Source: a virus
Lineage: Duplodnaviria; Heunggongvirae; Uroviricota; Caudoviricetes
DNA length: 64,000 bases
Strand: one strand, 5' to 3'
Virus record (IMG/VR): IMGVR_UViG_3300015214_000024
Span: 265,787 to 329,786 of that record
Numbering within the stretch: position 1 is the first letter of the stretch; every line of letters starts with the position of its first letter. The position numbers were made by a program, and so were the translations under genes. Positions 15,204-33,271 of this stretch are shown here, piece by piece. The notes beneath the pieces were generated by a model. It had not been told where the DNA came from, ran no database searches, and saw only the letters and a list, made by a program, of their open reading frames with translations.

Positions 15204-15383
15204 TTAGTCGAGAAGGAAATTTTGAAGATTCGATTTTAAAGCTTGACGAATGCTTCGTCTAATTTGACGATTCGCCATTCTACGCAACTCTGCTCTATCT
15301 TCTGGGTCAGCTGATTGGAAATCGATCTTTGATCTATAGTCTTTTTCAAAGTCGTGGACGTATTTCATATTAATCTGTGTCAT
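15204..15383 (-). CDS. small basic hypothetical protein
   Basis: AGGAG RBS before ATG 15383. Confidence 0.5.
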   Translation of the reverse strand: MTQINMKYVHDFEKDYRSKIDFQSADPEDRAELRRMANRQIRRSIRQALKSNLQNFLLD

Positions 15384-16061: not shown

Positions 16062-16586
16062 TTAAATCCTAAGGTTAGACACTATCAATTTAGTTGCTTT
16101 TTCCAAATGCTTGCGCTTAATCTTGAAAGACGTGGATTCAGTACCGCCAAACATTTGTGAATTTGCGTGAATTTCACTCCAAGCAGTGAGAAGTAGATTG
16201 ATTGCTCTTGGATCTTGTATAAGTTGTTCAAGCTCGTCTATTTTTAAAATATGGAAATCCATATCGTGTAAAATATACCAAGCTGTTTCCTCATCGCCCC
16301 CTGCCTCGATCCAAACATTATAGCTCATTTGTGCGTGATTTGGGAAATGCTGCCTGCCTTGTTCATCAACCGATCGACAGCGAGGTTTACCACAATCGTG
16401 ATAAATGTGATATAGGCGTAAGTCTTCAGGCGGCGATGCTAAGCTAATGAGCTTTTTGATTAAATCACCAACCTTACCAAAATCCCATTCGCTGGTTTGA
16501 TTATTATAAAGTTGAACGTAATACTCGTGAACCATATTTCCGTGGTCCATCATATTAACATTCTCAAACTGGTAGCAATTTTTCAT
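16062..16586 (-). CDS. HD-domain phosphohydrolase
   Basis: DHG...YHDCGKP...HFPNHA...HDMDFH. Confidence 0.7.
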   Translation of the reverse strand: MKNCYQFENVNMMDHGNMVHEYYVQLYNNQTSEWDFGKVGDLIKKLISLASPPEDLRLYHIYHDCGKPRCRSVDEQGRQHFPNHAQMSYNVWIEAGGDEETAWYILHDMDFHILKIDELEQLIQDPRAINLLLTAWSEIHANSQMFGGTESTSFKIKRKHLEKATKLIVSNLRI

Positions 16587-16671
16587 TTCTTCTTCAAGCT
16601 GTTTAAAATTCTAACACATTATTATTACTCCTTCAATTGGGTGGATGTCACCATCCACCCAGTGATTAGAT

Positions 16672-17343
16672 TTAATTCAAAAGTTCAAAATTTGCAAAAA
16701 AGTTTCGCAAATATCGATTAGTTATTGGTGAAGTAGCAATAGCCGTAAAACCAATATCATTATCAGATTCAAAGAAGGTGTGATATTTGATCACTCTATT
16801 GTATCTTCTTAACGAATCTTGGACAGCTTTCAAATGATCTTCGTTCTCAACTTGTAATACTATCATATGAGTATTATTGTAAGCTTCAGGGTTCTTCATC
16901 GTGACTTCCTGGATGGCGTGGCAACTTTGCACTACCCTTTGAGCGTGACTAAGATCCTTTCTCACAAGAACATATGAATACGGCTTGCTATATTTTGGAT
17001 TAACATTTTTGCTAATTTCGTTTAGAAATTCAGTAAGCTCTTCAGAATCGTCAATGTCAAAAATTTCCTTCAATTGAGACTTTAATCGATTATGACTATA
17101 CTTCAGTGTCCATTCATATAGCGAACTGTGGCCAACTACATTTGCCAATGATGAATATGGATCTTCACCATTTAGAAGTCGGACTTTCTTTTTAATTGGG
17201 CTAAAACCAGAATGTAGCAAATAAAGTGCTTTGCTTAATGCATCGTCAGAACCGATGCTTCTGGCAATTGCGTAAGCCGCCATATCAACAGCAGTAGGCT
17301 TAGCAGTTTCAAGATACTTTTTCCATTGTGTATAAACGTTCAT
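16672..17343 (-). CDS. peptidyl-tRNA hydrolase (Pth2-like C-terminal domain)
   Basis: YVLVRKDL...VVQSCHA...IVLQV.NE..L...F.E.D...TAIA..PI...LL pattern typical of PTH2. Confidence 0.7.
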   Translation of the reverse strand: MNVYTQWKKYLETAKPTAVDMAAYAIARSIGSDDALSKALYLLHSGFSPIKKKVRLLNGEDPYSSLANVVGHSSLYEWTLKYSHNRLKSQLKEIFDIDDSEELTEFLNEISKNVNPKYSKPYSYVLVRKDLSHAQRVVQSCHAIQEVTMKNPEAYNNTHMIVLQVENEDHLKAVQDSLRRYNRVIKYHTFFESDNDIGFTAIATSPITNRYLRNFFANFELLN

Positions 17344-17344: not shown

Positions 17345-17445
17345 TTAAATTCTCCTAAATAATCATAAATTTGTGTAAAAGTGTAAAAAGCAAATTTACA
17401 TCATTTAGGGCGGGCTATAATTCTACATCATTTTGTAAACTCCTG
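17345..17445 (-). promoter_or_regulatory. minigene/anti-SD leader of the Pth2-like gene
   Basis: AGGAG-N9-ATG ATG TAG AAT TAT AGC CCG CCC TAA ATG ATG TAA; CCTAAATGAT pairs with ATTATTTAGG over the SD; TTGACA-N17-TATATT promoter at ~17464-17492. Confidence 0.65.
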
Positions 17446-17499
17446 TTTGTTTGTTACCTTACCAATATAGTATGCCAGGCATTAATTGTCAATCATATT

Positions 17500-20806: not shown

Positions 20807-22066
20807 TTAAACGCTTGCTCTAAGACGTTTGACCACTTCATCCTTACCAAGGATGATCATAATTTCACCAATACCTGGAGAAATTGTGGAACCTGTCAGC
20901 GCAATTCTAACTGGCTGGACAATATTTGCAAATTTATCTTCACGGGCAACTGCCAGGCCGAGCAAATATCCGTGAATTCCATCAATCGTCCAATCAACTG
21001 AATCAATGTTTGCCAAAACATCGTTAATCACATCTGGATTAAATTTGTTTTTGGCTTTATCATTCCATTCAATATCATCTTTGAATAAGAAGATTGCCCC
21101 GTCGATCATTTCATTCAGAGTTTTGGAGCGCGGCTGTAGCTCAGGAATCAAAGCCTGAAGTTGATTGATCTGAACATCATCCAGCATAAAGCCATATTTC
21201 TTTTCAATAGGCAAATACACCATATTAAAAAGTGTTTTAGTATCAAGTGCCATCATAGTTTGGAAATTGACATTATACAGTTTTTTCATATCAAGACGGG
21301 CAGGATTGCGATTAACATCCTTTATATCAAACCACTGAAGAGCTTGATCTTTTGAAATGATATCAACATCACCGTGACCCCAACCTAATTTAGTCAAATA
21401 ACTGAATAGCCCATCCGGAACAATACCAAGATTTTGATAGAAATCAATACCTGCTGCCCCGTGGCGCTTGGAAAGTTTCTTACCATCCTCACCGTGAATC
21501 AATGGAATATGCGCGTATGTTGGAACTTTCCAGCCCATAGCTTTGTAAATTGTCATTTGACGGAATGCGTTATTCAAATGATCATCACCACGAATGACGT
21601 GAGTCACACCCATATCATAATCATCCACAACCACAGCCAGCATATAAGTTGGTGACCCATCGGAACGTAGGATCACGAAATCGTCAATATCCTGTGGCCA
21701 AGTTACTGTGCCTTGGACAAGATCATCAATGGTTTGTCCACCTTTAATGCCTTTGATTCGAATTGCTCCATTATCATAATATGCATCTTGCGAATGAAGC
21801 AACTCCATAGCGACTTCAATATGACGATCTGATCGATTACTTTGATAAACAGCATCACCATCATAATCCAATCCAATCCATTTCATACTATCGAAAATGT
21901 GATTGATTGAATCGGAAGTTGAGCGTTGCTTATCAGTATCCTCAATTCTAAGCTTAAATTGACCGCCATTACGGCGAGCATAAAGCCAATTGAAAATTGC
22001 TGTGCGAACACCTCCAATATGGAGGTCCCCAGTCGGGCTTGGCGCGAACCTGGTTACGACGCTCAT
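20807..22066 (-). CDS. gltX: glutamyl-tRNA synthetase (compact)
   Basis: TRFAPSPTGDLHIGG, LRIEDTD, VIRGDDH, KLSKR. Confidence 0.95.
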   Translation of the reverse strand: MSVVTRFAPSPTGDLHIGGVRTAIFNWLYARRNGGQFKLRIEDTDKQRSTSDSINHIFDSMKWIGLDYDGDAVYQSNRSDRHIEVAMELLHSQDAYYDNGAIRIKGIKGGQTIDDLVQGTVTWPQDIDDFVILRSDGSPTYMLAVVVDDYDMGVTHVIRGDDHLNNAFRQMTIYKAMGWKVPTYAHIPLIHGEDGKKLSKRHGAAGIDFYQNLGIVPDGLFSYLTKLGWGHGDVDIISKDQALQWFDIKDVNRNPARLDMKKLYNVNFQTMMALDTKTLFNMVYLPIEKKYGFMLDDVQINQLQALIPELQPRSKTLNEMIDGAIFLFKDDIEWNDKAKNKFNPDVINDVLANIDSVDWTIDGIHGYLLGLAVAREDKFANIVQPVRIALTGSTISPGIGEIMIILGKDEVVKRLRASV

Positions 22067-22077
22067 TTTAAACTCCC

Positions 22078-22554
22078 TTATTCGTAAATAATTTCCAAAA
22101 TAGTAAAATATTTGTCAGACTTTGGTGTGATTACTGTTACTGAATCACCAACCTTTCGATTTATCAATGATCTACCAACAGGACTCACAACACTGATCAA
22201 ACCGTTCTTTACATCAGACTCGTATTCACTCACTAATTGATAAGTCAATTCTTGTTCAGTGTCTTCATCAATCATTTTGACTTTAGCGCCAAACACAATT
22301 CTGTCAAGTCCAGCCAACGATTCCGGATCGACAATTTTTAAATCAGACAAAATACCTTCCAAGTTTTGAATTTTGCCTTCTATAAAAGCTTGCTGATTTT
22401 GCGCATCAGTAAATTCAGCATTTTCAAGCAATTCTTCACCACCATTAGTCCTGATGTGTTCAATTCTCGATATTATTTCCTGCCTATCGACAGACTTCAA
22501 TTTTTTCAACTCTGAAACTAATTTTTCATATCCATTTCTGGTTACTGTAATCAT
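22078..22554 (-). CDS. greA: transcription elongation factor GreA
   Basis: T..GY.KL..EL..LK, ENAEF, FGAKV, ISVVSPVGRSL. Confidence 0.9.
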   Translation of the reverse strand: MITVTRNGYEKLVSELKKLKSVDRQEIISRIEHIRTNGGEELLENAEFTDAQNQQAFIEGKIQNLEGILSDLKIVDPESLAGLDRIVFGAKVKMIDEDTEQELTYQLVSEYESDVKNGLISVVSPVGRSLINRKVGDSVTVITPKSDKYFTILEIIYE

Positions 22555-22570
22555 TTGCGACCTTTTATTC

Positions 22571-22601
22571 AAAAGATAGCCAGACACAAGTGCCTGGCTA
22601 C
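22571..22601 (-). terminator. terminator hairpin directly upstream of greA (leader attenuator candidate)
   Basis: GTAGCCAGGCAC-TT-GTGTCTGGCTATCTTTT, a few nt before the greA SD. Confidence 0.65.
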
Positions 22602-22925
22602 CGTGTTTAAACCATTTAAAAACTAATCAAAATATTTAGGTTATTGGGACTTGAGTCTTTTATTCCTAATTACCATTCAACTTGGTTGATGGAGCGATTT
22701 AACTCTTTAAAGGGCAAAACCGCCGTACAATACTATAATAATTTACTTACTTTAATTTAATATAAACTACCAGATTTTACGACATTAGTCCTTTGTATTC
22801 TGATAAGGAAATGGATTAATCCATCCCGCCGGTAATAAAATTTTAAAATCTTATTTCCGACATAGTTTCTTTATTAGCATCAACAATGTAGGTTATTTAT
22901 AATATATCGCGTGTTCGATGTCAAT

Positions 22926-23795
22926 TTATAATTGTGTAGGTGTTAGGGAAATCTTAACAGGTTGGGCTAATTTTTCCCATCCTTGTGCTATTAAATTGTT
23001 AGAATTGACTGGTTTATATTTCTCAGGATCTAATGACCAAGTTATATGATAAGTTCCACCATCTGGTCTTTCTGTTGATCCATCAATAGCCACAACAGCG
23101 GCTTCAAGTCCATCACCAGAATCAGCCCATCCAACAATTTCTGCAGAATTGATATCTGGCGGCGGCATCTTATCCTTATTCTTCATACTATAAGTTACGT
23201 GATGTGCGTAAATTTTAGGATATTTTGGTTTAAACATTTGCAATAATTCCTTTCGTTCCATTGCATCTGGAACGTAGGCCTTATATGCTTCGTGGACAGT
23301 GTTGCGAGGTATTGCACCATTCTTTAAAAACATCTCTAAGCGGCGGCCGGAAAGAGTATAATGCGCGCCAGCGACATCTAAAACGACAGTTTTATGATCA
23401 TCACCGAGAATTCGCAATGCTTTAACTGCTTGGCGTAAAGTTTCGGCAGCAACCGATGTTTCATCATAATTACCATTCTGGCGTGAATCGTGATAAATTA
23501 CGCGAACCCATCCTCGGTCATTCATAAATTGAATAGGCCCTGGTTCACCATCAACAAGATCAGTTATTTCATCATTATCATCTGTTATGTGATCCATCTG
23601 ATCAATTTTATCAGCATATTCTTCAGTTCTCGGATCATTCAATAAATCTTTAAAAGAAACACCAAACAAATCTGGATGAAGAAATAATAATGAACTGTGT
23701 GAAGAATGAATGTCAACAGGAATAATTTCCTTAGTATTCACATTTACCCAAGCCGGTCCACGAACATCAGATGCTAAGAATTCATTTAAGCGCAT
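22926..23795 (-). CDS. two-domain protein with C-terminal 2H phosphoesterase-like domain
   Basis: AHHVTY and YHITWS HxT motifs; MRLNEF N-terminus. Confidence 0.55.
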   Translation of the reverse strand: MRLNEFLASDVRGPAWVNVNTKEIIPVDIHSSHSSLLFLHPDLFGVSFKDLLNDPRTEEYADKIDQMDHITDDNDEITDLVDGEPGPIQFMNDRGWVRVIYHDSRQNGNYDETSVAAETLRQAVKALRILGDDHKTVVLDVAGAHYTLSGRRLEMFLKNGAIPRNTVHEAYKAYVPDAMERKELLQMFKPKYPKIYAHHVTYSMKNKDKMPPPDINSAEIVGWADSGDGLEAAVVAIDGSTERPDGGTYHITWSLDPEKYKPVNSNNLIAQGWEKLAQPVKISLTPTQL

Positions 23796-23803
23796 TTTAC
23801 TTC

Positions 23804-24343
23804 CTATGTATTAATTGAGCCAGCAGTCATCAATAAACGAACGTATTTTTCAACTGGCGGCCAGGCCTTCTCTAATTCAGAATCTGAATCAATTTTAGTC
23901 CATTCTTGCTCTTCTCGTTCATTCCAAAACAGACCATAACAGTTATATTTCTTAAATAAACTTCTCCAGATTCTTTTTGAATCTTCTGTTTGCTCAAAAT
24001 CACTGACGATTGCACCATATTTTTTAATGAACATTTCATACATCGCTTTGGCCAATCCCTTGCCACGATGGGAAGGGGCCACCCAAACATATGCAGCCAC
24101 CCAATAATTTTTGTCAATTAGTTTACGATTTAGAAATTTGAAGAGGCCAACGACTTTGTCGTCTTCAACAATAAACCATCTTTTTGTATCGTTTAGACTA
24201 TCATCTTCATAAATGGTATAACCACTACTTTGAGCAATAATGGATGAAGAGTCTTTTACTTTATCGAAATTGAATTGGTTACGATTTACGACAATATCAT
24301 CATCCGGAAGAGCATCCAAAGTCCTCAATTCAAACATTCTCAT
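23804..24343 (-). CDS. GNAT acetyltransferase
   Basis: VWVAPSHRGKGLAKAMY...SD..QT.DS.RIW. Confidence 0.75.
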   Translation of the reverse strand: MRMFELRTLDALPDDDIVVNRNQFNFDKVKDSSSIIAQSSGYTIYEDDSLNDTKRWFIVEDDKVVGLFKFLNRKLIDKNYWVAAYVWVAPSHRGKGLAKAMYEMFIKKYGAIVSDFEQTEDSKRIWRSLFKKYNCYGLFWNEREEQEWTKIDSDSELEKAWPPVEKYVRLLMTAGSINT

Positions 24344-24364
24344 ACTTGATTATTCCGAAAAAAG

Positions 24365-24480
24365 TGGTGCGGCCGGTAGGGATCGAACCTACAAACCGGG
24401 GAACATTACACGAAATGTATCAACCCGGGGCTGTTCAAACAAGTTTGACAGTCGTGTCTGCCTTATTTCACCACGGCCGC
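24365..24480 (-). ncRNA. tRNA-Leu-like RNA with 13-nt anticodon loop and hyper-extended variable arm
   Basis: GCGGCCG/CGGCCGC-A-CCA acceptor, Leu-type D arm, GTAGG-TTCGATC-CCTAC T arm; own TTGACT-N17-TATATT promoter. Confidence 0.75.
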
Positions 24481-24534
24481 ATAGTTAATTAATATATGAT
24501 ATTTATTTTTCTAAGTCAAGTATGAAAAGTAGTT

Positions 24535-24786
24535 TTAGGTTTCAGTGATGATGAAGGCGCTATGCATATGGTCTTCCATTTTCATTATGAATGAAGCAGG
24601 CACGGAACGATTTTCAGCATAGTCATAGACCCACTGGATTTCAAAATCACAATTATATTTCTTAGCTAAATCATTAAGTTCATCTACCGTCAGTAAACGA
24701 TTGGTATATTTACAAATACCGTACCGGGTTTTATCCATAGTTACGATATCAGTATAATCTTTTATTTCAAAAGAAAGTTCTTTCAC
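24535..24786 (-). CDS. small hypothetical protein (paralog pair)
   Basis: E.HM..AF.I.ET shared with the next ORF. Confidence 0.55.
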   Translation of the reverse strand: MKELSFEIKDYTDIVTMDKTRYGICKYTNRLLTVDELNDLAKKYNCDFEIQWVYDYAENRSVPASFIMKMEDHMHSAFIITET

Positions 24787-25025
24787 GTTTCTGCTATCAT
24801 AAAAGCTGTGTACATATGTTCTTCAAATTCCAATTCAAAATGACTGACCATTGGACGCTCATCTGAAGTAAAATTTGGCTCACATTTCACAGTATAGGTT
24901 TCTACTATATGATTTAATTCCTTCATAGAATATTGCTTACCATCAGGTGAACATATCGCTATCGATTGATAAGGTCCGCCAACTATTTCTTTTCTAAAAA
25001 TGTAAAAATTTAATTTTACGTTCAT
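24783..25025 (-). CDS. small hypothetical protein (paralog pair)
   Basis: Coupled to map. Confidence 0.55.
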   Translation of the reverse strand: MNVKLNFYIFRKEIVGGPYQSIAICSPDGKQYSMKELNHIVETYTVKCEPNFTSDERPMVSHFELEFEEHMYTAFMIAET

Positions 25026-25777
25026 AGAGTCATAATCTCAAAACCATTATTAGTTACAGCTATAGTGTGTTCCCATTGGGCTGCTGGTTCACGATCACAA
25101 GTAACAATAGTCCAACCATCCGGCATTAGTTTAACACGGCCTTTTCCAGTGGTTAAAATTGGTTCAATGGTTAAAAAATCGCCTTCTTGGAAAACGTGAT
25201 TCCAGTCAGGTAACGTTTCATCTATGAAATTTACAACAGAAGGTGCTTGATGGAAAATAGTTCCGATACCGTGCCCGCAAAATTGATCCAAAACTTTCAA
25301 ATTGTATTTCTTGGAAATTTCGTAACCTAAACGGCCAATATCAGCAACAGTAGTACCTGGCTTCAAAATCTCAATCGACCGCATCATTATCTCATAAGTA
25401 ACATCGCTGAGTCGTTTATGCTTAATTGAAGGTTTATCAACAAAGAACATTCTACTCGTATCACCGTGATGACCATCAACGATAACTGTTACGTCGATAT
25501 TCAAACTGTCACCTTTCTTTAACACCTTATCACCAGGTATTCCGTGGCAAACTACGTGATTCACACTTATGCAAGTATGCTTTGGATAAGGCGGCATAGT
25601 ACCCTTACTTGTATATTGATAACAGGCGCTTATTGCACCATTATCGTGTATAAAGTCGTATGCTTTCTGATCTAAAAAGTCAGTGGTTACTCCAGCCTGG
25701 ATGAAATTGGATAAATGATCCAATGTTCGAGCGGCCAAATGTCCTGCAATTCGCATTTTCTCCAATGATGGAGCCAT
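25022..25777 (-). CDS. map: methionine aminopeptidase type I
   Basis: CISVNHVVCHGIP, NIDVT, GDTSRMF, GHGIG..FH, TIEP, AQWEHT. Confidence 0.95.
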   Translation of the reverse strand: MAPSLEKMRIAGHLAARTLDHLSNFIQAGVTTDFLDQKAYDFIHDNGAISACYQYTSKGTMPPYPKHTCISVNHVVCHGIPGDKVLKKGDSLNIDVTVIVDGHHGDTSRMFFVDKPSIKHKRLSDVTYEIMMRSIEILKPGTTVADIGRLGYEISKKYNLKVLDQFCGHGIGTIFHQAPSVVNFIDETLPDWNHVFQEGDFLTIEPILTTGKGRVKLMPDGWTIVTCDREPAAQWEHTIAVTNNGFEIMTL

Positions 25778-25879
25778 ATTCAATATCCCACATAATGTTA
25801 CGATTAACATTATTAACATACCGCAACAAATAAGTCAATGCAAAAGTGTAGATCTGCACACTTCTGCCAATCTAATATT

Positions 25880-26896
25880 TTAAATTGATTTATTTTGAAT
25901 ATCATATAGTTGTTGGCTGGCTAAATTTTTGTTTTTAGCTTCAACCATAATATCAGCCATTGGTGAAAAAGAAAGAGCCCATTCATTAAGCGCATTGTTC
26001 CAGCATAAATCAGAATGCTTGCGCAATTTGGTTTTTGTGAAACCATTCTCAAATAACATTTTCATATCAGGAAGATCAGTTGCACCAACGTGTTCAATTA
26101 ACATATCGATACTTGAACTAAAGTGTATCTTTGGACGTTGACCTCGCCAAGAACCAAAAATGATATCTAACCGCTTATCGTCAGGCATTATATAATCGCC
26201 ACTATTAATTAGATGGTGATGTATGTCTAATACGATTGAAAATTTGTCGGCTATTTTGATCACATCATCAACACCAAAAGAAAATTCATCATTTTCGACA
26301 GTTAGGAAATTTTTACAAGCCTGACTTAATCGACGGCTATTATTAACGAAACCATCAGTTCCGCCCTCCTTACCACCAACGTGTATATTAATAGCAAAAT
26401 TGTGATCGTGGAATTTACTTCCATCATAGCCCATCATTTCAGCACAATAAGTATGATATTCAAGTTCAATAATAGTCTTATCAACTACATCACTTTTAAT
26501 TGAATTCAAAATACAAAACTGGCCTGGGTGAAAAGAAAGACGGATATTGTGATTTCGAGCGAACGTCCCGCATTCGCCAAGCTTTAAATCAATCATCTTT
26601 TTGATTGATGGCAAGTTGTAAAACCACATAAACTCAGGATGCGTATAAAGTGGTAATAAGTCTGATCCAATTCTCATCATTCTCATACCAACAGGCATCT
26701 GGCTGACGAACAGTAGCATATTACCAAAAGTTCGCAAGTTGTGCTTAAGAAGAGAAATGAGTTTCTTTTCCTGATCAGCGCGACTGTTCCTATTCATAAA
26801 AGCAACAGTTGTGGATTTTAGATTATGATCTTCAATCCATTCTTTTGTTTTAGTAGGATTCATAATTTTACAAGCAAAGCCAATTTTGGCAATCAT
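25880..26896 (-). CDS. uvsE: UV-damage endonuclease
   Basis: IGFACK, RIGSDLLP, RLSFHPGQF, TVENDE, LDIHHH, PKIHFS, MVEAK.K. Confidence 0.9.
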   Translation of the reverse strand: MIAKIGFACKIMNPTKTKEWIEDHNLKSTTVAFMNRNSRADQEKKLISLLKHNLRTFGNMLLFVSQMPVGMRMMRIGSDLLPLYTHPEFMWFYNLPSIKKMIDLKLGECGTFARNHNIRLSFHPGQFCILNSIKSDVVDKTIIELEYHTYCAEMMGYDGSKFHDHNFAINIHVGGKEGGTDGFVNNSRRLSQACKNFLTVENDEFSFGVDDVIKIADKFSIVLDIHHHLINSGDYIMPDDKRLDIIFGSWRGQRPKIHFSSSIDMLIEHVGATDLPDMKMLFENGFTKTKLRKHSDLCWNNALNEWALSFSPMADIMVEAKNKNLASQQLYDIQNKSI

Positions 26897-27600
26897 AATT
26901 TAAATTTGCTCCAAGTGTTTTTATGTTCTAAACATCGATTTAATATAATCCTTAAGGATTCTGGATCATATACAAAACCAAAATGGGTAGTGTCAACCTC
27001 AATATTCTCACTTATGTCAGTTTCAGTCTCTAAGCAATCCTGATATGGTGCAATAATATCAGCTTTGGAATAGAGAGACGAGAATGGGACCACTGGAATT
27101 TCACCCATATAGTTAGTATATTGATCACAAATTGGATGATCATCGATATCAATACCAATTTTTGTATATTTCTTTCGCATTTCTTCAATGTCAATTTTTT
27201 GCTTGAACGGCGTGCCGAGGGTGATAACTGAATTGACTAGTTCTGGCGACATTTTAGCCAGGCAGCGAGCATAAAAGCCTCCCATACTCCATCCAATTAT
27301 AGTAACGGGGGTTTTATGCTCATCATAAATCCTTACTAATTCTTTATGAATAGTATTAATTAATGAATCACTTGCAATAATATTGGTTCCCTGATTCCAA
27401 GTATAGGGCTTGAATCCACAGGAAAGTAAAGCCGATCTTAGCAATAATGTGGCGTGATCATTAGTTAAAAAGCCAGGAATTACTAAAACTGGCCGGCCGT
27501 CAGCCTCTTCCTTGTATGAGAATGATTCTGCCGAGTCGAGCAAAAAATCAGCTATAAAATTAGGAGTCCTCTTTTTCAATAGATTAAAGAATTCGTCCAT
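26893..27600 (-). CDS. alpha/beta-hydrolase (lipase/esterase)
   Basis: PGFL oxyanion motif, GWSMGG nucleophile elbow, D and H triad. Confidence 0.85.
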   Translation of the reverse strand: MDEFFNLLKKRTPNFIADFLLDSAESFSYKEEADGRPVLVIPGFLTNDHATLLLRSALLSCGFKPYTWNQGTNIIASDSLINTIHKELVRIYDEHKTPVTIIGWSMGGFYARCLAKMSPELVNSVITLGTPFKQKIDIEEMRKKYTKIGIDIDDHPICDQYTNYMGEIPVVPFSSLYSKADIIAPYQDCLETETDISENIEVDTTHFGFVYDPESLRIILNRCLEHKNTWSKFKL

Positions 27601-29210
27601 TAAACTTGTATCCTTTCTTCAACCATCTGAATAAATTGGTCTAAACCAACCATTTCAGCAAATGTACCTACTCTGGGCCCTTGTTCTGAACCAAACACGA
27701 TTTCGTAGATGGCCTTGAACCATTCTTGAAGCTTCTCATAATTAGCTGACTTCCCAATTTCGTAAACAATACTTTGAATTGATTCAGCTGTTGGATTATC
27801 CAACGTCCTAAATTCATCGAGCATTGACGATAGTAGGCCATATTCATATTCAGTTGGTGACCGAAATGAAATCGATCCCGAAAGATGATCATTAAAATAA
27901 TTACCAGCTAACGGAATAATTGAACTGACTTGGTTATTGCCACAATATTGCTCAACAATCTTTCCTACTACTTCTGAATCCGTAATACCTGTTGATCCAA
28001 TCAAGTTCAGCAATAGGCTATAAGATACCTCATTATGTGAAGAATTTACATCGCCATTATGCACGTGGTAAACTGGATTACCAAGCTGTTGGCTGGCCGT
28101 CTGAGTCGCATATAGCTTTAAACTGTTATTATAATCATCCATAGCAATAGGAACAACACCAGCGTGAAGATTCTTCGCTCTAGTTGGCTCGCGATACAAA
28201 TAATATGCGAGACTTTCTTGAGTTCCATATTGAAGCCATTCTTCAATAGTGAAACCATTGCCCTTTGACTTTGAAATCTTTGCTCCATTCTTGTCAAGAA
28301 ATAGTTCATAAGTCAAATTAATTGGTGGGATGCCACCAAGAACTCGACAGATTTGTCCTGAAAGACGGACACTGTCAGTCAAATCCTTACCAGACATTTC
28401 ATAATCAACATCAAAATAGACCCAGCGCATTGCCCAGTCGACCTTCCACTGAAGCTTAGTACGGCCGTTGTGGATATCGACAACGCACGGAGTAGATCCG
28501 AGATTGAACTCCAAAAACCTCTTCCCATTTTCTGTTGAGAGAACAACCGGCACTTGGTTAACGTGTGGGGTCTTGTTTAAACTGACCGAATCGTGGAAAA
28601 CTGGCATAAACGGACTATATGTTTGGCGGCGGTCCTCTCCTAAGGTAGGAAGGATGATATCCAAAATAGCCTGATTGCTATCGAATACTCTGTCCAGCAT
28701 ATTGTTAAACTTGCCAAAACTATAATAATCTGAAGAGCTTACAAAACTCACTCGGCTCCGATTCGGCGAAGAGCCAACAACACTATTATTATAAGTAGCC
28801 AGGATGGCATCAACAAATTCTACCAATCGAGTGTTATTTGCATCAGCAAAGCTGCCGTCTTCTGTTCCATAAGGATTTGGGACCATCGATAGAGGCTCAC
28901 CCAAATGGTCATTCATCCATTCAGGCATTCCATCAGGCACCTTGCGGAAACCATCATAATCGTCACTAAACATAATAAGGCGAGTCTGGTAGGCATTCTG
29001 AGTTAGATCATCAAATGCCTTCATTACCCAAAGTGTACGAACTACTTCAGCAAATGTACCAATGTGGGGAGCGCCAGACGGGCCGTAACCTGATTCGAAG
29101 GTCACAACATCACCTGGCTTCTTGCCCTTACGCTCAATGTGCTTTAGAAGCCTCTTGGCCTCGACGAATGGCCAGGCCTTTGACTCTTCATACACTTGAA
29201 CCATATTCAT
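27600..29210 (-). CDS. lysS: class I lysyl-tRNA synthetase
   Basis: SGYGPSGAPHIGT, DDYDGFRKVP, KLQWKVDWAMRW, KISKSKGN, GPRVG. Confidence 0.95.
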   Translation of the reverse strand: MNMVQVYEESKAWPFVEAKRLLKHIERKGKKPGDVVTFESGYGPSGAPHIGTFAEVVRTLWVMKAFDDLTQNAYQTRLIMFSDDYDGFRKVPDGMPEWMNDHLGEPLSMVPNPYGTEDGSFADANNTRLVEFVDAILATYNNSVVGSSPNRSRVSFVSSSDYYSFGKFNNMLDRVFDSNQAILDIILPTLGEDRRQTYSPFMPVFHDSVSLNKTPHVNQVPVVLSTENGKRFLEFNLGSTPCVVDIHNGRTKLQWKVDWAMRWVYFDVDYEMSGKDLTDSVRLSGQICRVLGGIPPINLTYELFLDKNGAKISKSKGNGFTIEEWLQYGTQESLAYYLYREPTRAKNLHAGVVPIAMDDYNNSLKLYATQTASQQLGNPVYHVHNGDVNSSHNEVSYSLLLNLIGSTGITDSEVVGKIVEQYCGNNQVSSIIPLAGNYFNDHLSGSISFRSPTEYEYGLLSSMLDEFRTLDNPTAESIQSIVYEIGKSANYEKLQEWFKAIYEIVFGSEQGPRVGTFAEMVGLDQFIQMVEERIQV

Positions 29211-31743
29211 TTTCTACGTCCTCGCATCGTTGACACATATCTTTGTCGTTCACCTTAGCATAGTATGTCCTACAACGCAAGCACTTTTCACCATTATAAA
29301 CTTCAAAATGAACCGTTCGGGTTCCGACTTGCTCATTTTTATATTGAGCACAACCTAAAACTTCTTTCCAATCAACAGGGAGCGGAGATTTGAAACATAC
29401 TACCATCTGCTCCATCTGCCATTTTTGTTCGCTACGTTGATCTTCGAAAGCTTTCAATACTTCATCGCGTTCATTTTCGACGAATTCCCAGTACCCTAAA
29501 TTTTCACAGTCTAAATCATTCAAGCAATAGCTTGGATCAAATCCATATTGTGAAACTTCTGCCACCAAAAATGGTGTAGTTGGTTCCATTACATAAAGTA
29601 ACGTTCTGACTAGGCGATCCAACGTGTATAATACTGCCTGCCTGCGATTGCTTCCCTTTGAATCACAATACAAAGAATCTTTGACTTGAGTGAAATAAAA
29701 TTCACTGACCCAGCGCACATATGCCAATGCCTTTCTTACTGTCGGGAAAGTACCACCACATTGACTCTGTACCAATTCTTTAGCTTTATATAATACATAA
29801 CGGTCAACTGGAAGCAGTTCTGCACTTTGATTAACCACTTCGCCATTGAGGTTTGCTAAGCAGAACCTCACCGTGTTACGGACTTTGTCATAATTTGCCT
29901 GTGTTTGCTTGAGCTTTTCTTCATCAAACTCAACATCTGAATCAGCAAACCCGCTCAACAGCCACAGTCTCATAACATCGGCGCCATATTTTTCAAGAAG
30001 ATCTGGTAGCCCGCCACCATTACCAACACTCTTTGACATTTTCTGGCGGCGCTGGAGCACAAATCCGTGAGTGAACACGTTTTTAAAAGGTAATTTGCCA
30101 TAAAGAGCATAATGGACAAGTGCGCTGGACTGGAACCAACCCCGATGCTGATCAGTACCTTCTAAGTACATATCGGCCCGATCTACGTCAGGATATACAG
30201 CTTTTAAACTTGATCCAGAATCAAACCACACATCAAGAACATCCATCACTTTTTGGTATTGGCCGTGATATTTTTCAGGCAAGAAAAAGTCAGCGTCGTG
30301 TTCATACCAAACATCACTACTATGTTCTTTAAACATTTTTACAACATTAGTATTGACCTCAGGATCAACGAGCATTTCTCCAGTTTCATTGTGGAGAAAC
30401 AGGGCCATAGGCACACCCCAAAGACGTTGACGACTTAAACACCATTCAGATCGGTCGCCAAACATAAATTTGAATCGATTAGCATAGCCAGTAGAATTCC
30501 AATTGACTTCGTCAACTTCTTCGAGCAATTTATCCTTGAAAGAATCAAAATTGAAGAACCAATTTTTCTTGGTTTTCACAACTACTGGTTTTTTAGATCG
30601 CCAGGAGACTTGACGTTCCGACACTCGGTGCAACTCATAATAATAAACTAAATCTGGTCGACTTTCGAGGTATTCCTTTACGGCCTGATTTGCTTTATAG
30701 ACGTGGACTTTTACGCCATTGACTTCCATCATAGCGTCATCATCAACCAGCCCTTCAAGATTTAGGTTATACTTTACACCAAGCTTAAAATCGTCAAATC
30801 CGTGTCCAGGTACAACGTGTAAAAAGCCAGACCCAGCGTGTTCATTAACCGAATCATTTTCTTCCAACAGCGGTGACCTACCCCCAAAAGGAGGATTGAC
30901 AAATTTACCTTTTAGTTCATTTGGATCAAAATTTCTAACAAATTCCAAACCAAGCTCTTGGTTGAGCATAAAGCCAGCACTTTCATTCATCACAACATAC
31001 TTGCCAGATGGTGTTTTGCCCATTTTATAGGTTGCATCAGAATTATAAGCTACCGCTTTATTACCAGGCAATGTCCAAGGTGTAGTGGTCCACACTAAAA
31101 CGCTATAATTTTCACCTTCAACTGGAAATTCAACAAATAATGAATCGAGCGGTAAACTTACAGATTCAAGTTCAGCTTCAGCCAATGTAGTCTTTTCTAC
31201 TGGTGACCAATGAACCGGGCGGAATCGCTGTTCCAAAAGGCCACGCTCTTGAAGTCCATAAAGATTCTTCAAAGTTTCAGCTTCGTATTCATAGTCGTGA
31301 GTTTTATAGCATTTATCCCATTCGGCTCTTACACCAAATGATTTAAATTCTTCTTTTTGAACGTCTACCCACGAATCAGCATATGCTCGGCAATCCTTTC
31401 GGAACTGCACCACGTCAGCATCTTTACTCTTTCCAGCTTTAGTGTATTGTTCTTCAACTTTAACTTCGATCGGTAAGCCGTGACAATCCCATCCTGGACG
31501 GAACGATACGGTTTTTCCATTAAAGCGTTCTTGATGACGATTTACAGAATCTTTCAACACTTTGTTCAAAAAGTGTCCAAGGTGTAAATTACCATTTGCA
31601 TAAGGGGGGCCGTCGTGCAACAAAAAATCAAATCCATCAGATTGTGGATGAGTAGTTACTACTTTAGTGAATGTTGTGTCTGACCCAGCCTGCCGTTTAA
31701 GTGGGAAAGAAGTTGATGGTAGAAAAAGATTAAATTTAGACAT
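29188..31743 (-). CDS. ileS: isoleucyl-tRNA synthetase (IleRS1-like, C-terminal Zn finger)
   Basis: HDGPPYANG.LHLGH, WTTTPWTLP, WCLSRQRLWG, EGTDQHRGWF, KMSKS, CxxC..CxxC. Confidence 0.95.
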   Translation of the reverse strand: MSKFNLFLPSTSFPLKRQAGSDTTFTKVVTTHPQSDGFDFLLHDGPPYANGNLHLGHFLNKVLKDSVNRHQERFNGKTVSFRPGWDCHGLPIEVKVEEQYTKAGKSKDADVVQFRKDCRAYADSWVDVQKEEFKSFGVRAEWDKCYKTHDYEYEAETLKNLYGLQERGLLEQRFRPVHWSPVEKTTLAEAELESVSLPLDSLFVEFPVEGENYSVLVWTTTPWTLPGNKAVAYNSDATYKMGKTPSGKYVVMNESAGFMLNQELGLEFVRNFDPNELKGKFVNPPFGGRSPLLEENDSVNEHAGSGFLHVVPGHGFDDFKLGVKYNLNLEGLVDDDAMMEVNGVKVHVYKANQAVKEYLESRPDLVYYYELHRVSERQVSWRSKKPVVVKTKKNWFFNFDSFKDKLLEEVDEVNWNSTGYANRFKFMFGDRSEWCLSRQRLWGVPMALFLHNETGEMLVDPEVNTNVVKMFKEHSSDVWYEHDADFFLPEKYHGQYQKVMDVLDVWFDSGSSLKAVYPDVDRADMYLEGTDQHRGWFQSSALVHYALYGKLPFKNVFTHGFVLQRRQKMSKSVGNGGGLPDLLEKYGADVMRLWLLSGFADSDVEFDEEKLKQTQANYDKVRNTVRFCLANLNGEVVNQSAELLPVDRYVLYKAKELVQSQCGGTFPTVRKALAYVRWVSEFYFTQVKDSLYCDSKGSNRRQAVLYTLDRLVRTLLYVMEPTTPFLVAEVSQYGFDPSYCLNDLDCENLGYWEFVENERDEVLKAFEDQRSEQKWQMEQMVVCFKSPLPVDWKEVLGCAQYKNEQVGTRTVHFEVYNGEKCLRCRTYYAKVNDKDMCQRCEDVENEYGSSV

Positions 31744-31797
31744 TTTAAAAACTCCTATTGAATAAAAATCACAAATTAACTTGGACCAGATAACGTA

Positions 31798-31848
31798 TTA
31801 CCTGGCCTTTATAATTCGTATATTTTTAATCAAATTAAGAGTTTTCAT
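31798..31848 (-). promoter_or_regulatory. Ile-rich leader peptide MKTLNLIKNIRIIKAR (translational attenuator of ileS-lysS)
   Basis: Four Ile codons (ATT, ATA, ATT, ATA); leader nt AAAACTCTTA..TTGATTAAAAAT complementary to ATTTTTATTCAA-TAGGAGTTTT over the ileS SD. Confidence 0.75.
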
Positions 31849-32351
31849 TCCTGTTCTTCTTTAATAACTTCTTTCAAAGCGAGTTCTACAAATTGATCGA
31901 TTGAAATTCCACGAAGTGCAGCAGCAGCTTCGAGCATTTCCTTAACATCGTCATCAAGTTCCAAAGTTAAAACAACCCTCGGGTCATATTCTTCACCTTT
32001 AGGTATTTTCGTAACTTTGTCAATAATGTCGTCAAAATCATCAGTCATATGCCAATTGAGATCTTCACTAAATTCATCCCATTTGATATTACGCTGTTTT
32101 GCTTCTTCCTTATAAGCATCTAAATAGTCCAAGTCAATCCACCTGTAGCGGAGTTCACCTTCATAAGTTTCGCTGATTGAAATTTCATATATTTGCTGTG
32201 TTTGAGTATCAAAAACTGCGCTAATATGAAAATTATCATCTGAACTATCAAGGAATCGTGCATTTGGACCAAAACATTTCCAAAGGAATTCACTTCCGTC
32301 AGTAATTTTGAAATCAATTGCTTTTGTGAAAGCTTCCATTTGTTTTGACAT
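31845..32351 (-). CDS. hypothetical protein with C-terminal ribbon-helix-helix-like segment
   Basis: GGAGG RBS; LELDDDV...AA.RGISIDQFV. Confidence 0.6.
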   Translation of the reverse strand: MSKQMEAFTKAIDFKITDGSEFLWKCFGPNARFLDSSDDNFHISAVFDTQTQQIYEISISETYEGELRYRWIDLDYLDAYKEEAKQRNIKWDEFSEDLNWHMTDDFDDIIDKVTKIPKGEEYDPRVVLTLELDDDVKEMLEAAAALRGISIDQFVELALKEVIKEEQE

Positions 32352-32554
32352 TAGATTGCCTCCAAACAATGCTCAGTGATTGAAACAGCCTTCCAGCCAT
32401 CGCCATATCCATTGTTATATGGCGTATCCAGTTCTACGATGAACACTGTCATACCAGGAGCGTCAAATGCCACTCCGATTGTGGAACCTTTAATACCATC
32501 CATGTCACCGCCAGTACGAACAAGCTTAACACGCTGATTAGGTGAGAATTTCAT
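32351..32554 (-). CDS. small SH3/KOW-like hypothetical protein
   Basis: AAGGA RBS; F.PNQRVK...G..G. Confidence 0.5.
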   Translation of the reverse strand: MKFSPNQRVKLVRTGGDMDGIKGSTIGVAFDAPGMTVFIVELDTPYNNGYGDGWKAVSITEHCLEAI

Positions 32555-32577
32555 TTTCAGTCCTTTCGATTATGTTG

Positions 32578-32661
32578 CGGAGTAGTGGGGATTCGAACCC
32601 CATACCTTGCGGTACCCTCTGTTTTCGAGGCAGTGTTAGAACCTATCTAATTACGTACTCC
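32578..32661 (-). tRNA. tRNA-Ser(CGA), 8/4-type with bulged acceptor stem
   Basis: GGAGTA(C)GT/ACTACTCC-G, 5-bp D stem TTAGA/TCTAA, loop CT-CGA-AA, long V arm, 4-bp T stem GGGG/CCCC; CCA not encoded. Confidence 0.7.
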
Positions 32662-33263: not shown

Positions 33264-33271
33264 ATAAAATT

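What the first reader, a model, noticed from the sequence alone, without database searches (positions are those of the whole stretch)
17345..17492. Minigene leader (ATG ATG TAG ... CCG CCC TAA ATG ATG TAA) in front of peptidyl-tRNA hydrolase
A promoter and a strong AGGAG RBS lead into a two-codon minigene, and a second ATG ATG TAA follows in frame. CCTAAATGAT pairs (10 bp) with ATTATTTAGG over the Pth SD. Established: two-codon minigenes (lambda bar) provoke peptidyl-tRNA drop-off that Pth must clear, and Pro-Pro-stop stalls termination. Inference: the leader senses drop-off or slow recycling, or UAG read-through carries the ribosome to PP-TAA on the anti-SD and opens Pth translation. Caveat: the Pro codons may simply reflect the C-rich anti-SD.
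Basis: partly seen in the sequence, partly recalled or inferred. Interest (0 to 1): 0.75.

Follow-up and report, generated by a model that had tools for sequence, protein, structure and literature searches.

The report
Amber-gated leader switch before phage Pth2
A giant phage puts a tiny leader gene with a built-in UAG stop in front of a tRNA-hydrolase-like gene, so the enzyme is probably made only when the phage's own UAG-reading tRNA overrides that stop, which would give these puzzling phage suppressor tRNAs a concrete target.

Summary
A promoter and an AGGAG ribosome-binding site lead into ATG ATG TAG. Then come AAT TAT AGC CCG CCC TAA in frame, and a 19-bp hairpin that buries the ribosome-binding site of a Pth2-fold gene.

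All 12 relatives found (51-88% protein identity) keep the design. TAG is invariant, and the two Pro codons vary only at third positions. The hairpin is kept through compensatory changes.

Folding calculations say a ribosome at UAG leaves the site closed, while one at Pro-Pro-UAA opens it.

The genome (455 kb, standard code) carries two tRNA(CUA) genes. The next gene, HD-like, starts ATG TGT TAG in frame. Pth2-like genes of at least 11 other large phages also carry an early in-frame TAG, and each genome checked has a tRNA(CUA).

The second ATG ATG TAA is not conserved as an ORF; it is part of the hairpin arm.

This scan has noted the same class on other DNA. I found no published description, and nothing here is experimental.

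The parts
17464..17492 (-). Sigma-70-type promoter: TTGACA, 17 nt, TATATT
   Evidence: It matches 11 of 12 consensus positions. The TTGAC of the -35 hexamer is invariant in all 11 aligned relatives and its last A nearly so. Function as a promoter is inferred.
17440..17444 (-). Shine-Dalgarno AGGAG of the leader ORF, 8 nt before its ATG
   Evidence: Read directly. AGGA(G/A) is kept in 13 of 13 sequences.
17405..17431 (-). Leader ORF: ATG ATG TAG AAT TAT AGC CCG CCC TAA (M-M-amber-N-Y-S-P-P-stop). The TAG is at 17425-17423.
   Evidence: Kept in 13 of 13 sequences as ATG-(ATG|CGT)-TAG-AAY-xxx-xxx-CCN-CCN-TAA. The Pro codons vary only at the third position, and Ser switches between AGC and TCA. 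It is the only such pattern in the genome.
17396..17404 (-). Second ATG ATG TAA. It is part of the 5' arm of the hairpin and is not a conserved ORF.
   Evidence: It is ATG-ATR-TAA in 9 of 13 sequences. It is replaced by ATT GTA TAA in L008, by a 1-nt longer variant in L009, by TTG ATA TAG in L011 and by a different sequence in L095.
17391..17409 (-). 5' arm of the hairpin (anti-SD). It starts on the last Pro codon and the leader's UAA.
   Evidence: Minimum-free-energy fold. The same architecture appears in the 11 sequences folded, with different sequences in L005, L008 and L011. The stem has two G-U pairs, which argues for pairing at the RNA level.
17374..17390 (-). 17-nt U-rich loop (CUUUUUACACUUUUACA)
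   Evidence: It is nearly invariant in 9 of 11 aligned relatives. Its role is unexplained.
17354..17373 (-). 3' arm of the hairpin. It includes the first three bases of the Pth2 gene's AGGAG (17356-17352).
   Evidence: Opening the ribosome-binding site costs 7.8 kcal/mol in the free leader, 8.1 with a ribosome at UAG and 2.5 with a ribosome at UAA.
16672..17343 (-). Pth2-fold gene, 223 aa: a helical N-terminal domain (1-120) plus a Pth2-like C-terminal domain (121-223)
   Evidence: Pfam PTH2 scores 25.6 bits against a cut-off of 23, over residues 124-222. The AlphaFold model has mean pLDDT 82. Foldseek matches archaeal and human Pth2 with TM-score by target up to 0.76. A PDB profile search hits a peptidyl-tRNA hydrolase at E 2.8e-4.
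16636..16663 (-). GC-rich hairpin between the Pth2 stop codon and the next gene's SD
   Evidence: One search reports it as terminator-like on the + strand. On the - strand no T-run follows it. Relatives carry a GC-rich hairpin of different sequence at the same place.
16062..16633 (-). HD-like gene with its own amber gate: AAGGAG 16633-16628, then ATG TGT TAG 16619-16611 in frame with the body. ORF callers start it at 16586.
   Evidence: SD-ATG-(NNN)-TAG in frame is kept in 13 of 13 sequences. The 8 codons after TAG are conserved at the amino-acid level, with Leu switching among CTT, TTA, TTG and CTG. The fold resembles the HD domain of CCA-adding enzymes, with TM-score about 0.75.

Best explanation
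This is a leader-peptide translational switch whose input is read-through of a UAG stop codon.

1. Transcription starts at the TTGACA/TATATT promoter.
2. Ribosomes load on the strong AGGAG and translate AUG-AUG, meeting UAG at codon 3.
3. If release factor 1 wins, a dipeptide is released. The ribosome's front edge stops about 3 nt short of the hairpin. The ribosome-binding site of the Pth2-fold gene stays paired, and the gene is off.
4. If a UAG-reading tRNA wins, the ribosome reads Asn-Tyr-Ser-Pro-Pro and sits on UAA. The phage encodes two such tRNA(CUA) genes elsewhere in its genome.
5. At UAA the ribosome's footprint covers the anti-SD arm. The AGGAG is freed and a second ribosome starts the Pth2-fold gene.
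6. Pro-Pro before a stop codon is known to slow termination, which would lengthen the open state.

The next gene, HD-like, is gated directly by a UAG at its own codon 3. The pair of tRNA-3'-end-type enzymes would therefore be made only while amber suppression is active.

Shown here: the sequence layout, its conservation, the compensatory hairpin changes, the energetics and the presence of tRNA(CUA) genes.

Inferred: that the tRNAs are made and charged, that UAG is read, that Pro-Pro-stop stalls the ribosome, and that the protein is a hydrolase.
For: Evidence in this clade:
- The layout is kept in 13 of 13 clade members at 51-88% protein identity.
- TAG is never replaced by TAA or TGA.
- There are exactly five sense codons between TAG and TAA in every sequence.
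- In the Asn codon and both Pro codons only the third position varies. The Tyr codon also varies at its first position in 2 of 13, and codon 6 varies at all three. Ser switches between AGC and TCA. This pattern is expected only if the stretch after UAG is translated.
- The hairpin is kept through compensatory changes: CCUAAAU/AUUUAGG, CCUCCG.../...GGAG in L005, and CCUUAAUU/AAUUAAGG in L011.
- The cost of opening the ribosome-binding site is 5.8-9.3 kcal/mol in the free leader, about the same with a ribosome at UAG, and 1.5-2.8 with a ribosome at the leader's UAA. This holds in all 13.
- The genome has two tRNA(CUA) genes. One scores 39.9 bits on Rfam tRNA against a cut-off of 29, and both lie between ORFs.
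- The code is otherwise standard. TAG ends 26 of 472 long ORFs, and recoding TAG gains little coverage.
- The neighbouring HD-like gene starts SD-ATG-NNN-TAG in frame in 13 of 13 sequences, and no SD precedes its internal ATG.

Evidence from other large phages:
- Pth2-like genes of XacN1, RAS14, GAP32, CBB, Kaldavass, RsoM2USA, Arash, ME3, LR756511 and three metagenomic loci all have an in-frame TAG at codon 3-8. It lies before the core beta-strand (...VFVRTDL), so a restart downstream would lose that strand.
- A tRNA(CUA) is present in every genome checked: Arash, GAP32, RsoM2USA and RAS14, ME3 at 450 bp from the gene, XacN1 (PMC5852040) and L093.
- A genome-wide scan for an SD-led ATG, one to three codons, TAG and then a long open frame finds almost only the Pth2-like and HD-like genes.
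- The base after the gate TAG is A in all 26 clade cases and a purine in all 12 other lineages. Among ordinary TAG stops of this genome it is A in 9 of 26. A purine after UAG favours suppression (established: Bossi 1983; Miller and Albertini 1983, from my own knowledge).
Against: - Nothing is experimental. There is no evidence that the tRNA(CUA) genes are expressed or charged, or with which amino acid.
- One of the two tRNAs scores below the Rfam threshold (30.8 bits, on the tRNA-Sec model).
- In this genome the tRNA(CUA) genes lie more than 100 kb from the leader.
- I could not check whether the 12 relatives carry a tRNA(CUA), because only short stretches of their contigs were reachable.
- TAG still ends 26 long ORFs of the phage and, presumably, many host genes, so strong suppression should be costly.
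- The leader lacks the Arg of RxPP arrest motifs, so the strength of any stall is unknown.
- CCNCC is also the natural complement of GGAGG, so part of the Pro-Pro conservation may be an RNA constraint. It is the anti-SD itself in L005 and L095.
- The hairpin z-scores are modest, -1.6 to -3.4 against mononucleotide shuffles. The whole 136-nt leader folds no better than shuffles, with z = 0.01.
Confidence: 0.6

Rival explanations
1. A sensor of release-factor-1 capacity that needs no dedicated suppressor. When termination at UAG is slow, because RF1 is scarce or inhibited, near-cognate tRNAs read UAG and the same hairpin opens. This resembles the way prfB senses RF2 at an in-frame UGA.
For: It uses the same geometry and energetics as the main model. 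TAG invariance fits an RF1-specific signal. The phage itself encodes a short RF1-type factor with PPT and GGQ motifs 19 kb away, so UAG termination capacity may change during infection. This rival is not exclusive of the main model, because the gate would read the ratio of suppressor to RF1.
Against: A tRNA(CUA) is present in every genome checked that has an amber-gated Pth2-like gene. In ME3, Arash, GAP32 and L093 it lies within 3 kb of the gene. Near-cognate read-through alone is usually well below 1% (my own knowledge), which is poor for making proteins whose body lies after the UAG.
Confidence: 0.15
2. Termination followed by reinitiation. Ribosomes always terminate at UAG, stay on the mRNA, scan 18 nt and restart at the second AUG AUG UAA inside the 5' arm. 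That melts the hairpin, so the leader merely delivers ribosomes and no UAG decoding is needed.
For: UAA and AUG are adjacent, and the second mini-ORF is present in 9 of 13 sequences. L011 has TTG ATA TAG and L008 has ATT GTA TAA at the same place.
Against: L009 and L095 have no equivalent ORF. The model does not explain why the first stop is always TAG. It also does not explain why the five codons after TAG keep frame and change synonymously. It cannot explain the Pth2-like and HD-like genes whose conserved body follows the TAG directly.
Confidence: 0.08
3. A bar-type two-codon minigene that senses peptidyl-tRNA drop-off. fMet-Met-tRNA or fMet-Arg-tRNA falls off at UAG, and Pth shortage feeds back on Pth2 synthesis.
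For: A strong SD, AUG, one sense codon and a stop form the bar layout, and the gene downstream has a Pth2 fold.
Against: Lambda bar minigenes work with UAA or UGA (my own knowledge), whereas here TAG is invariant in 13 of 13. The downstream in-frame codons are under coding-type constraint. A ribosome held at UAG does not lower the cost of opening the ribosome-binding site: 8.1 against 7.8 kcal/mol. No step links drop-off to hairpin opening. In other phages the same TAG lies inside the Pth2-like ORF itself.
Confidence: 0.06
4. The inverted repeat is a DNA operator for a phage repressor, placed downstream of the promoter. The mini-ORFs would then be incidental.
For: It is a long imperfect palindrome just after a strong promoter, and the loop is nearly invariant.
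Against: Two positions of the stem are G-U pairs, which are mismatches in DNA. Arm sequences differ between relatives while pairing is kept, and the arm always ends on the SD. This reading does not explain the conserved TAG, the reading frame or the codon-like changes.
Confidence: 0.03

Closest known systems
Leader-peptide translational attenuation (ermC, ermB, cat leaders)
   Same: A short ORF with its own SD lies ahead of a hairpin that hides the SD of the next gene. A ribosome held at the end of the leader melts the 5' arm and turns the gene on.
   Different: In those systems the trigger is an antibiotic-bound ribosome. Here the ribosome can reach the stalling end only after reading through an in-frame UAG, so the input would be amber suppression. 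No published leader with that input turned up in my searches.
prfB (release factor 2) autoregulation through an early in-frame UGA
   Same: An early in-frame stop codon makes expression depend on the race between a release factor and an alternative decoding event.
   Different: prfB escapes by a +1 frameshift and controls the factor that reads the stop. Here the escape is in-frame read-through, the controlled genes are hydrolase-like, and the competitor is probably a phage tRNA.
Stop-codon recoding in phages with suppressor tRNAs (TAG read as Gln, code 15; Borges et al., bioRxiv 10.1101/2021.08.26.457843)
   Same: A phage-encoded tRNA(CUA) acts in a host with the standard code. The recoded codon is proposed to time gene expression.
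   Different: In those phages 26-71% of genes carry in-frame stops. Here the code is standard, and I found only two gated sites in 455 kb. The preprint does not mention Pth or leaders.
Lambda bar minigenes (AUG AUA UAA/UGA) and Pth
   Same: A strong SD, AUG, one sense codon and a stop, with a link to peptidyl-tRNA hydrolase.
   Different: Bar minigenes are toxic tRNA sinks in Pth-deficient cells, not regulators. Their stop codon is not UAG-specific, and nothing downstream is in frame. All three points differ here.
Arrest peptides ending in Pro (RAPP/RGPP peptides ApdA, ApdP and ApcA; SecM RAGP; TnaC Pro-stop)
   Same: The leader ends in Pro-Pro directly before the site where the ribosome must dwell.
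   Different: There is no Arg at position -3; the leader ends S/N/Y-P-P, and the next codon is a stop. Any stall would therefore be at termination, as with TnaC or C-terminal Pro-Pro, and it is untested.
Amber-gated Pth2-like genes and UAG-gated arrest leaders noted earlier by this scan on other phage DNA
   Same: A tRNA(CUA), an early in-frame UAG, a Pth2-fold gene and, in some cases, a leader ending in Pro-Pro that unmasks an SD.
   Different: In this genome the tRNA genes are far from the cassette. The leader is only 8 codons long and lacks the Arg. The Pth2-fold gene has gained a 120-residue N-terminal domain, and a separate HD-like gene carries its own gate. The earlier notes are unpublished AI notes, not evidence.

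Membership tests
Leader-peptide translational attenuator (erm type) | Short ORF with its own ribosome-binding site upstream of the regulated gene | tested here: met
   AGGAG plus an 8-nt spacer plus ATG. It is kept in 13 of 13 sequences.
Leader-peptide translational attenuator (erm type) | Hairpin that sequesters the SD of the downstream gene and is conserved as a structure | tested here: met
   A stem covering the SD is present in all 11 sequences folded, with compensatory changes in L005 and L011. In L095 and L096 the ribosome-binding site is likewise costly to open.
Leader-peptide translational attenuator (erm type) | A ribosome at the end of the leader opens the SD, and one earlier in the leader does not | tested here: met
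   By calculation only. The opening cost falls from 5.8-9.3 to 1.5-2.8 kcal/mol with a ribosome at UAA, and stays about the same (5.4-9.2) with a ribosome at UAG.
Leader-peptide translational attenuator (erm type) | Regulated ribosome stalling in the leader | not testable with these tools
   This needs toeprinting or ribosome profiling.
Lambda bar-type drop-off minigene | SD, AUG, one sense codon and a stop, acting as a stand-alone unit | tested here: not met
   The layout is present. However, the stop is always TAG, and the five in-frame codons after it are under coding-type constraint, so it is not a stand-alone unit.
Lambda bar-type drop-off minigene | Toxicity or tRNA sequestration in Pth-deficient cells | not testable with these tools
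   This needs a pth(ts) host.
RAPP/RGPP arrest peptides | An Arg-(Ala/Gly)-Pro-Pro motif at the arrest site | tested here: not met
   The leader ends S-P-P, N-P-P or Y-P-P in all 13 sequences, with no Arg.
Pth2 (PF01981) peptidyl-tRNA hydrolase | Sequence match above the family threshold | tested here: met
   25.6 bits against a cut-off of 23, over residues 124-222 only. 25.2 bits in the genome search.
Pth2 (PF01981) peptidyl-tRNA hydrolase | Pth2 fold | tested here: met
   The model has mean pLDDT 82. It matches MJ0051, Bit1, AF2095 and the Sulfolobus Pth2 with TM-score by target of 0.68-0.76 and probability 1.00.
Pth2 (PF01981) peptidyl-tRNA hydrolase | Catalytic Lys and Asp of archaeal Pth2 (recalled from the Sulfolobus enzyme literature) | tested here: inconclusive
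   The Lys position aligns with R/K/Q in this clade and with Q or I in other phages. An acidic E-x-D motif is conserved. The conserved motifs VQSxHA and EPD define a divergent subfamily.
Pth2 (PF01981) peptidyl-tRNA hydrolase | Hydrolysis of peptidyl-tRNA | not testable with these tools
   This needs an enzyme assay.
Phage stop-codon recoding (code 15) | In-frame TAG in a large share of genes, with low coding density under the standard code | tested here: not met
   Coverage by long ORFs is 80.5% under code 11 and 82.2% with TAG read as sense. Only three in-frame TAG junctions between long frames were found.
Phage stop-codon recoding (code 15) | Phage-encoded suppressor tRNA(CUA) | tested here: met
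   There are two genes, at genome positions 15281-15358 and 165512-165586.

The most novel reading that the evidence does not exclude
The tRNA(CUA) is a dedicated regulatory tRNA rather than a decoding tRNA. It forms a charge-sensing feedback loop with two enzymes that act on tRNA 3' ends: the Pth2-fold hydrolase and the HD domain of CCA-enzyme type. These enzymes are fused in XacN1, RAS14 and L091. UAG is the one codon at which an uncharged or damaged tRNA gives clean termination instead of a stalled ribosome. The gates would therefore report the state of the tRNA 3'-end pool, for example under host toxins that acetylate, pyrophosphorylate or trim tRNA ends, and would set the dose of the repair enzymes. 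In this clade the gate has been moved into a separate leader that amplifies the signal.
Probability: 0.15. Interest if true: 0.9.

Novelty: new variant of a known kind. Interest (0 to 1): 0.78.

Why it matters
Suppressor tRNAs are common in large phages that otherwise use the standard code, and published genome papers say their targets could not be found. XacN1 is one example (PMC5852040) and the siphophage Summit is another (PMC9022506, abstract). Those searches looked past terminal stop codons.

The targets seen here are UAG codons at positions 2-8 of two small genes and of a leader ORF. Gene callers skip such codons:
- GAP32_397 and Arash gp84c are truncated in GenBank.
- The RsoM2USA gene is not annotated.
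- XacN1 ORF364 and the RAS14 gene start too late.

If the switch works as proposed, it would be a natural sensor of whether stop-codon suppression is on. That is a new input for leader-peptide attenuation. It may also be a step on the evolutionary route from the standard code to a recoded phage. It would link suppressor tRNAs to enzymes that act on tRNA 3' ends, and it offers a compact part for synthetic circuits that use amber suppression. The claim can be tested with simple reporters in laboratory strains.

Tried and rejected
- Megablast of 3 kb against GenBank phages found no match.
- The search for related loci with the single protein in viral contigs found nothing. With the alignment it found only distant C-terminal-domain relatives in viral and metagenome contigs.
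- An exact-pattern scan of viral contigs for the leader gave 0 hits.
- RNAalifold on the MAFFT alignment gave a weak consensus of -7.8 kcal/mol, because L005, L008 and L011 are misaligned. I relied on single-sequence folds and constrained ensembles instead.
- Genome-wide TAG recoding is rejected.
- A wider regulon of early-TAG genes in this genome is rejected. The other SD-ATG-NNN-TAG hits lie inside genes or tRNAs, or are followed by short frames.
- The amino-acid identity of the tRNA(CUA) genes could not be settled. One has U1-A72 and G73, which is Gln-like. The other has G1-C72 and A73, like those of Arash, GAP32 and RAS14, with no clear parent among the phage's 67 other tRNAs.
- The two other Pth2 paralogues of the genome have ordinary starts, so the gate is specific to this divergent subfamily.
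- The HD-like protein has no Pfam or PDB sequence match. Only the structural look-alike search names it.
Full report
**What is there**

The window is part of a 455,147-bp virus record with 39% G+C. The finding lies on the minus strand. Reading 5' to 3':
- TTGACA (17492-17487), 17 nt, TATATT (17469-17464). This is the best promoter-like site in the 5-kb neighbourhood, matching 11 of 12 positions.
- AGGAG (17444-17440), 8 nt, then ATG ATG TAG (17431-17423).
- In frame, AAT TAT AGC CCG CCC TAA (to 17405).
- ATG ATG TAA (17404-17396).
- A U-rich stretch.
- AGGAG (17356-17352) and the ATG (17343) of a 223-codon ORF.

The predicted RNA fold pairs 17409-17391 with 17373-17354. That makes 19 pairs, two of them G-U, with one bulge. 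The stem begins on the second base of the last Pro codon and covers the first three bases of the downstream AGGAG.

**The downstream gene**

- Pfam PTH2 matches residues 124-222 just above threshold, 25.6 against 23 bits.
- A model built from 14 homologues has mean pLDDT 82.
- Its C-terminal half matches archaeal and human Pth2 structures, with TM-score by target of 0.68-0.76.
- A profile search of PDB sequences finds a peptidyl-tRNA hydrolase at E 2.8e-4.
- Residues 1-120 form a helical domain with no match.
- The catalytic Lys of archaeal Pth2 is not strictly kept.

I therefore call it a Pth2-fold protein, not a proven Pth.

**Conservation**

A protein search found 13 homologues of 51-88% identity, all metagenomic. 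I fetched 12 of their loci. Gene order is the same in nearly all of them (L011 differs). Every one has a TTGACA promoter, an SD and a leader of the same form:
- The leader reads ATG-(ATG or CGT)-TAG-AAY-xxx-xxx-CCN-CCN-TAA.
- TAG is invariant in 13 of 13, and so is the TAA.
- The distance between TAG and TAA is always five codons.
- In the Asn codon and the two Pro codons only the third position varies: T/C, then G/A/T, then C/G/T.
- The Tyr codon varies at third position, and at first position in two sequences.
- Ser appears as AGC, AGT and TCA.

This pattern is expected of translated sequence, and it lies after the UAG.

The second ATG ATG TAA is ATG-ATR-TAA in 9 of 13 sequences and is lost in L008, L009, L011 and L095. 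I read it as part of the hairpin arm, or at most as an optional helper.

**The hairpin**

All 11 sequences folded singly form a stem whose 5' base is the last Pro codon plus UAA and whose 3' base is the SD. The sequences differ: CCUAAAU/AUUUAGG in most, CCUCCG.../...GGAG in L005 and CCUUAAUU/AAUUAAGG in L011. L095 reads the same way by eye. Z-scores range from -1.6 to -3.4. The G-U pairs argue for RNA pairing rather than a DNA operator.

I computed the free energy needed to make the ribosome-binding site (-13 to +3) single-stranded. I masked the nucleotides a ribosome would cover, -15 to +15 around the first base of the P site.
- The cost is 5.8-9.3 kcal/mol for the free leader.
- It is about the same (5.4-9.2) with a ribosome whose A site holds UAG.
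- It is 1.5-2.8 with a ribosome whose A site holds the leader's UAA.

This holds in all 13 sequences. A ribosome parked on the two-codon minigene therefore cannot open the switch, while one that has read through to Pro-Pro-UAA can.

**Who reads UAG**

ARAGORN finds 69 tRNA genes in the genome, two of them with anticodon CUA. Both lie between ORFs, are G+C-rich and encode CCA. One passes the Rfam tRNA threshold at 39.9 bits. The other matches only the tRNA-Sec model, below threshold.

The genome otherwise uses the standard code. TAG ends 26 of 472 long ORFs, and treating TAG as sense adds less coverage than doing the same with TGA or TAA.

**A second gate next door**

After the Pth2-fold gene and a GC-rich hairpin comes AAGGAG, 8 nt, then ATG TGT TAG AAT TTT .... 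This is in frame with the 174-codon ORF that callers start at 16586.
- All 13 clade members keep SD-ATG-(NNN)-TAG there.
- In two of them TAG is codon 2.
- No SD precedes the internal ATG.
- The eight codons between TAG and that ATG are conserved at the amino-acid level, with Leu encoded by CTT, CTG, TTA or TTG.

The protein has no Pfam match. Its Atlas model resembles the HD domain of CCA-adding enzymes, with TM-score about 0.75.

**Beyond the clade**

tblastn found the Pth2-like domain in 15 GenBank phage records, all large phages. I examined nine of them and, before consulting earlier notes, found the same feature in each. An SD-led ATG is followed by one to two codons, then TAG, then the conserved core strand:
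- XacN1: MK*T...
- RAS14: MK*T...
- GAP32: MAQ*NEKTWIYVFVRTDL
- CBB and Kaldavass: the same type as GAP32
- RsoM2USA: ML*I...
- Arash: ML*N...
- ME3: MT*I...
- LR756511: MTH*V...

Three further metagenomic loci behave alike.

A restart after the TAG would lose conserved residues or the first beta-strand, so these proteins need read-through. GenBank annotations truncate, split or miss these genes.

In XacN1, RAS14 and L091 the HD-like and Pth2-like domains are fused in one amber-gated ORF. In RsoM2USA they are neighbouring genes, each with its own early TAG. The two proteins therefore belong together.

Every genome I could scan whole has a tRNA(CUA):
- Arash has one 1 kb from the gene and GAP32 has one 2.8 kb away. 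RsoM2USA and RAS14 also have one.
- ME3 has one 450 bp upstream, according to its annotation.
- L093 has one about 560 bp upstream.
- XacN1 has two, according to its paper, which states that their targets could not be found.

A scan of five genomes for an SD-led ATG, one to three codons, TAG and at least 60 open codons returns almost only these two gene families. There are 0-2 hits per genome for the TAA and TGA controls.

The base after the gate TAG is A in all 26 clade cases and a purine in all 12 other lineages. Among ordinary TAG stops of this genome it is A in 9 of 26. From my own knowledge, a purine after UAG favours suppression.

**Mechanism and rivals**

The best reading is a read-through-gated attenuator.
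- RF1 at UAG releases a dipeptide and leaves the site closed.
- tRNA(CUA) carries the ribosome five codons on to Pro-Pro-UAA, where its footprint frees the SD.
- Slow termination after Pro-Pro is established for E. coli (from my own knowledge). It is inferred here to lengthen the open state.

An RF1-capacity sensor without a suppressor remains possible and is compatible with the main model, because the gate would read the ratio of suppressor to RF1. The phage encodes a short RF1-type factor of its own. Reinitiation at the second mini-ORF and a DNA operator are less likely, for the reasons given under rival explanations.

What the switch is for is open. It could be a timer tied to tRNA expression. 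It could also be a dose control for enzymes that act on tRNA 3' ends.

**Prior notes and literature**

After my own analysis I queried the scan's notebook. It holds many notes on other phage DNA, both of amber-gated Pth2-like genes beside suppressor tRNAs and of UAG-gated leaders ending in RxPP that unmask an SD. It also holds first-reader notes on this same locus and genome. A later check of one such report kept the observation but priced the bold reading at 20 in 100 for lack of experiments. I took that as a caution.

My literature searches found no description of such a switch. The preprint on phage recoding mentions neither Pth nor leaders.

**Verdict**

This is a new variant of leader-peptide attenuation with stop-codon suppression as its input. 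This scan has seen it before on other DNA. It is unpublished as far as I could find, and untested.

Noticed in passing
window 36591-37274 (-), in-frame TGA at 37151-37149: A short RF1-type release-factor homologue. The RF-1 domain scores 70.6 bits, the codon-recognition motif is PPT (the PxT type) and GGQ is present. It lacks domain 1 and is interrupted by one in-frame TGA about 31 codons after its ATG. Homology continues in the same frame after the TGA. ARAGORN found no tRNA(UCA).
   Followed up: partly
window 16636-16663: A GC-rich hairpin between the Pth2-fold stop codon and the HD-like gene's SD, with no T-run on the coding strand. All relatives have a hairpin of different sequence at the same place, so the structure itself is conserved. 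Its role (processing, stability or terminator) is unknown.
   Followed up: partly
window 17423-17439 (-): A small 5' hairpin pairs the SD-to-AUG spacer with codon 2 plus UAG. The spacer covaries with codon 2: UUUACA with UGUAGA in the Met-Met leaders, and UAACG with CGUUA in the Met-Arg leaders. It is seen in about 9 of 13 sequences. Codon 2 may therefore be set by RNA structure rather than by the amino acid.
   Followed up: partly
window 17374-17390 (-): The 17-nt loop of the switch hairpin, with tandem UUUUACAC, is almost invariant across relatives whose proteins are only 65-70% identical. This is stronger conservation than a loop needs. It could be a site for a protein or for ribosomal protein S1.
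   Followed up: no
window 20807-39773: A dense run of translation genes: GluRS/GlnRS-like (20807-22066), GreA/B-like (22078-22587), GNAT acetyltransferase (23804-24343), methionine aminopeptidase (25022-25819), class I LysRS (27600-29210), IleRS (29188-31743), SerRS (35354-36598), TilS-like PP-loop protein (37934-38605) and CCA-adding enzyme (38637-39773).
   Followed up: partly
genome G000:C1:253797-254156 (+) and 27516-27779 (+), outside the window: Two further Pth2-family paralogues (51.2 and 18.4 bits) with ordinary starts and no early TAG. Only the divergent VQSxHA/EPD subfamily is amber-gated.
   Followed up: partly
L014 (XacN1), L015 (RAS14), L016 (GAP32), L017 (RsoM2USA), L019 (CBB), L020 (Arash), L021 (ME3): GenBank annotations of cultured jumbo phages truncate, split or omit the Pth2-like gene because of the early in-frame TAG. 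GAP32_397, CBB_406 and Arash gp84c are too short. The RsoM2USA gene is unannotated. XacN1 ORF364 and RAS14 WAX21615 start downstream of the SD-led ATG.
   Followed up: yes
L014, L015, L091 against window 16062-17343: The HD-like and Pth2-like domains are fused, in the order HD then Pth2, in XacN1, RAS14 and an IMG/VR contig. Here and in RsoM2USA they are separate neighbouring genes in the order Pth2 then HD. This Rosetta-stone type link suggests the two act together.
   Followed up: partly
genome G000:C1:183179-183491, outside the window: ARAGORN reports two tRNA-like genes with odd anticodon loops, a 4-base 'ctta' and a 2-base 'cc', within the main tRNA cluster.
   Followed up: no
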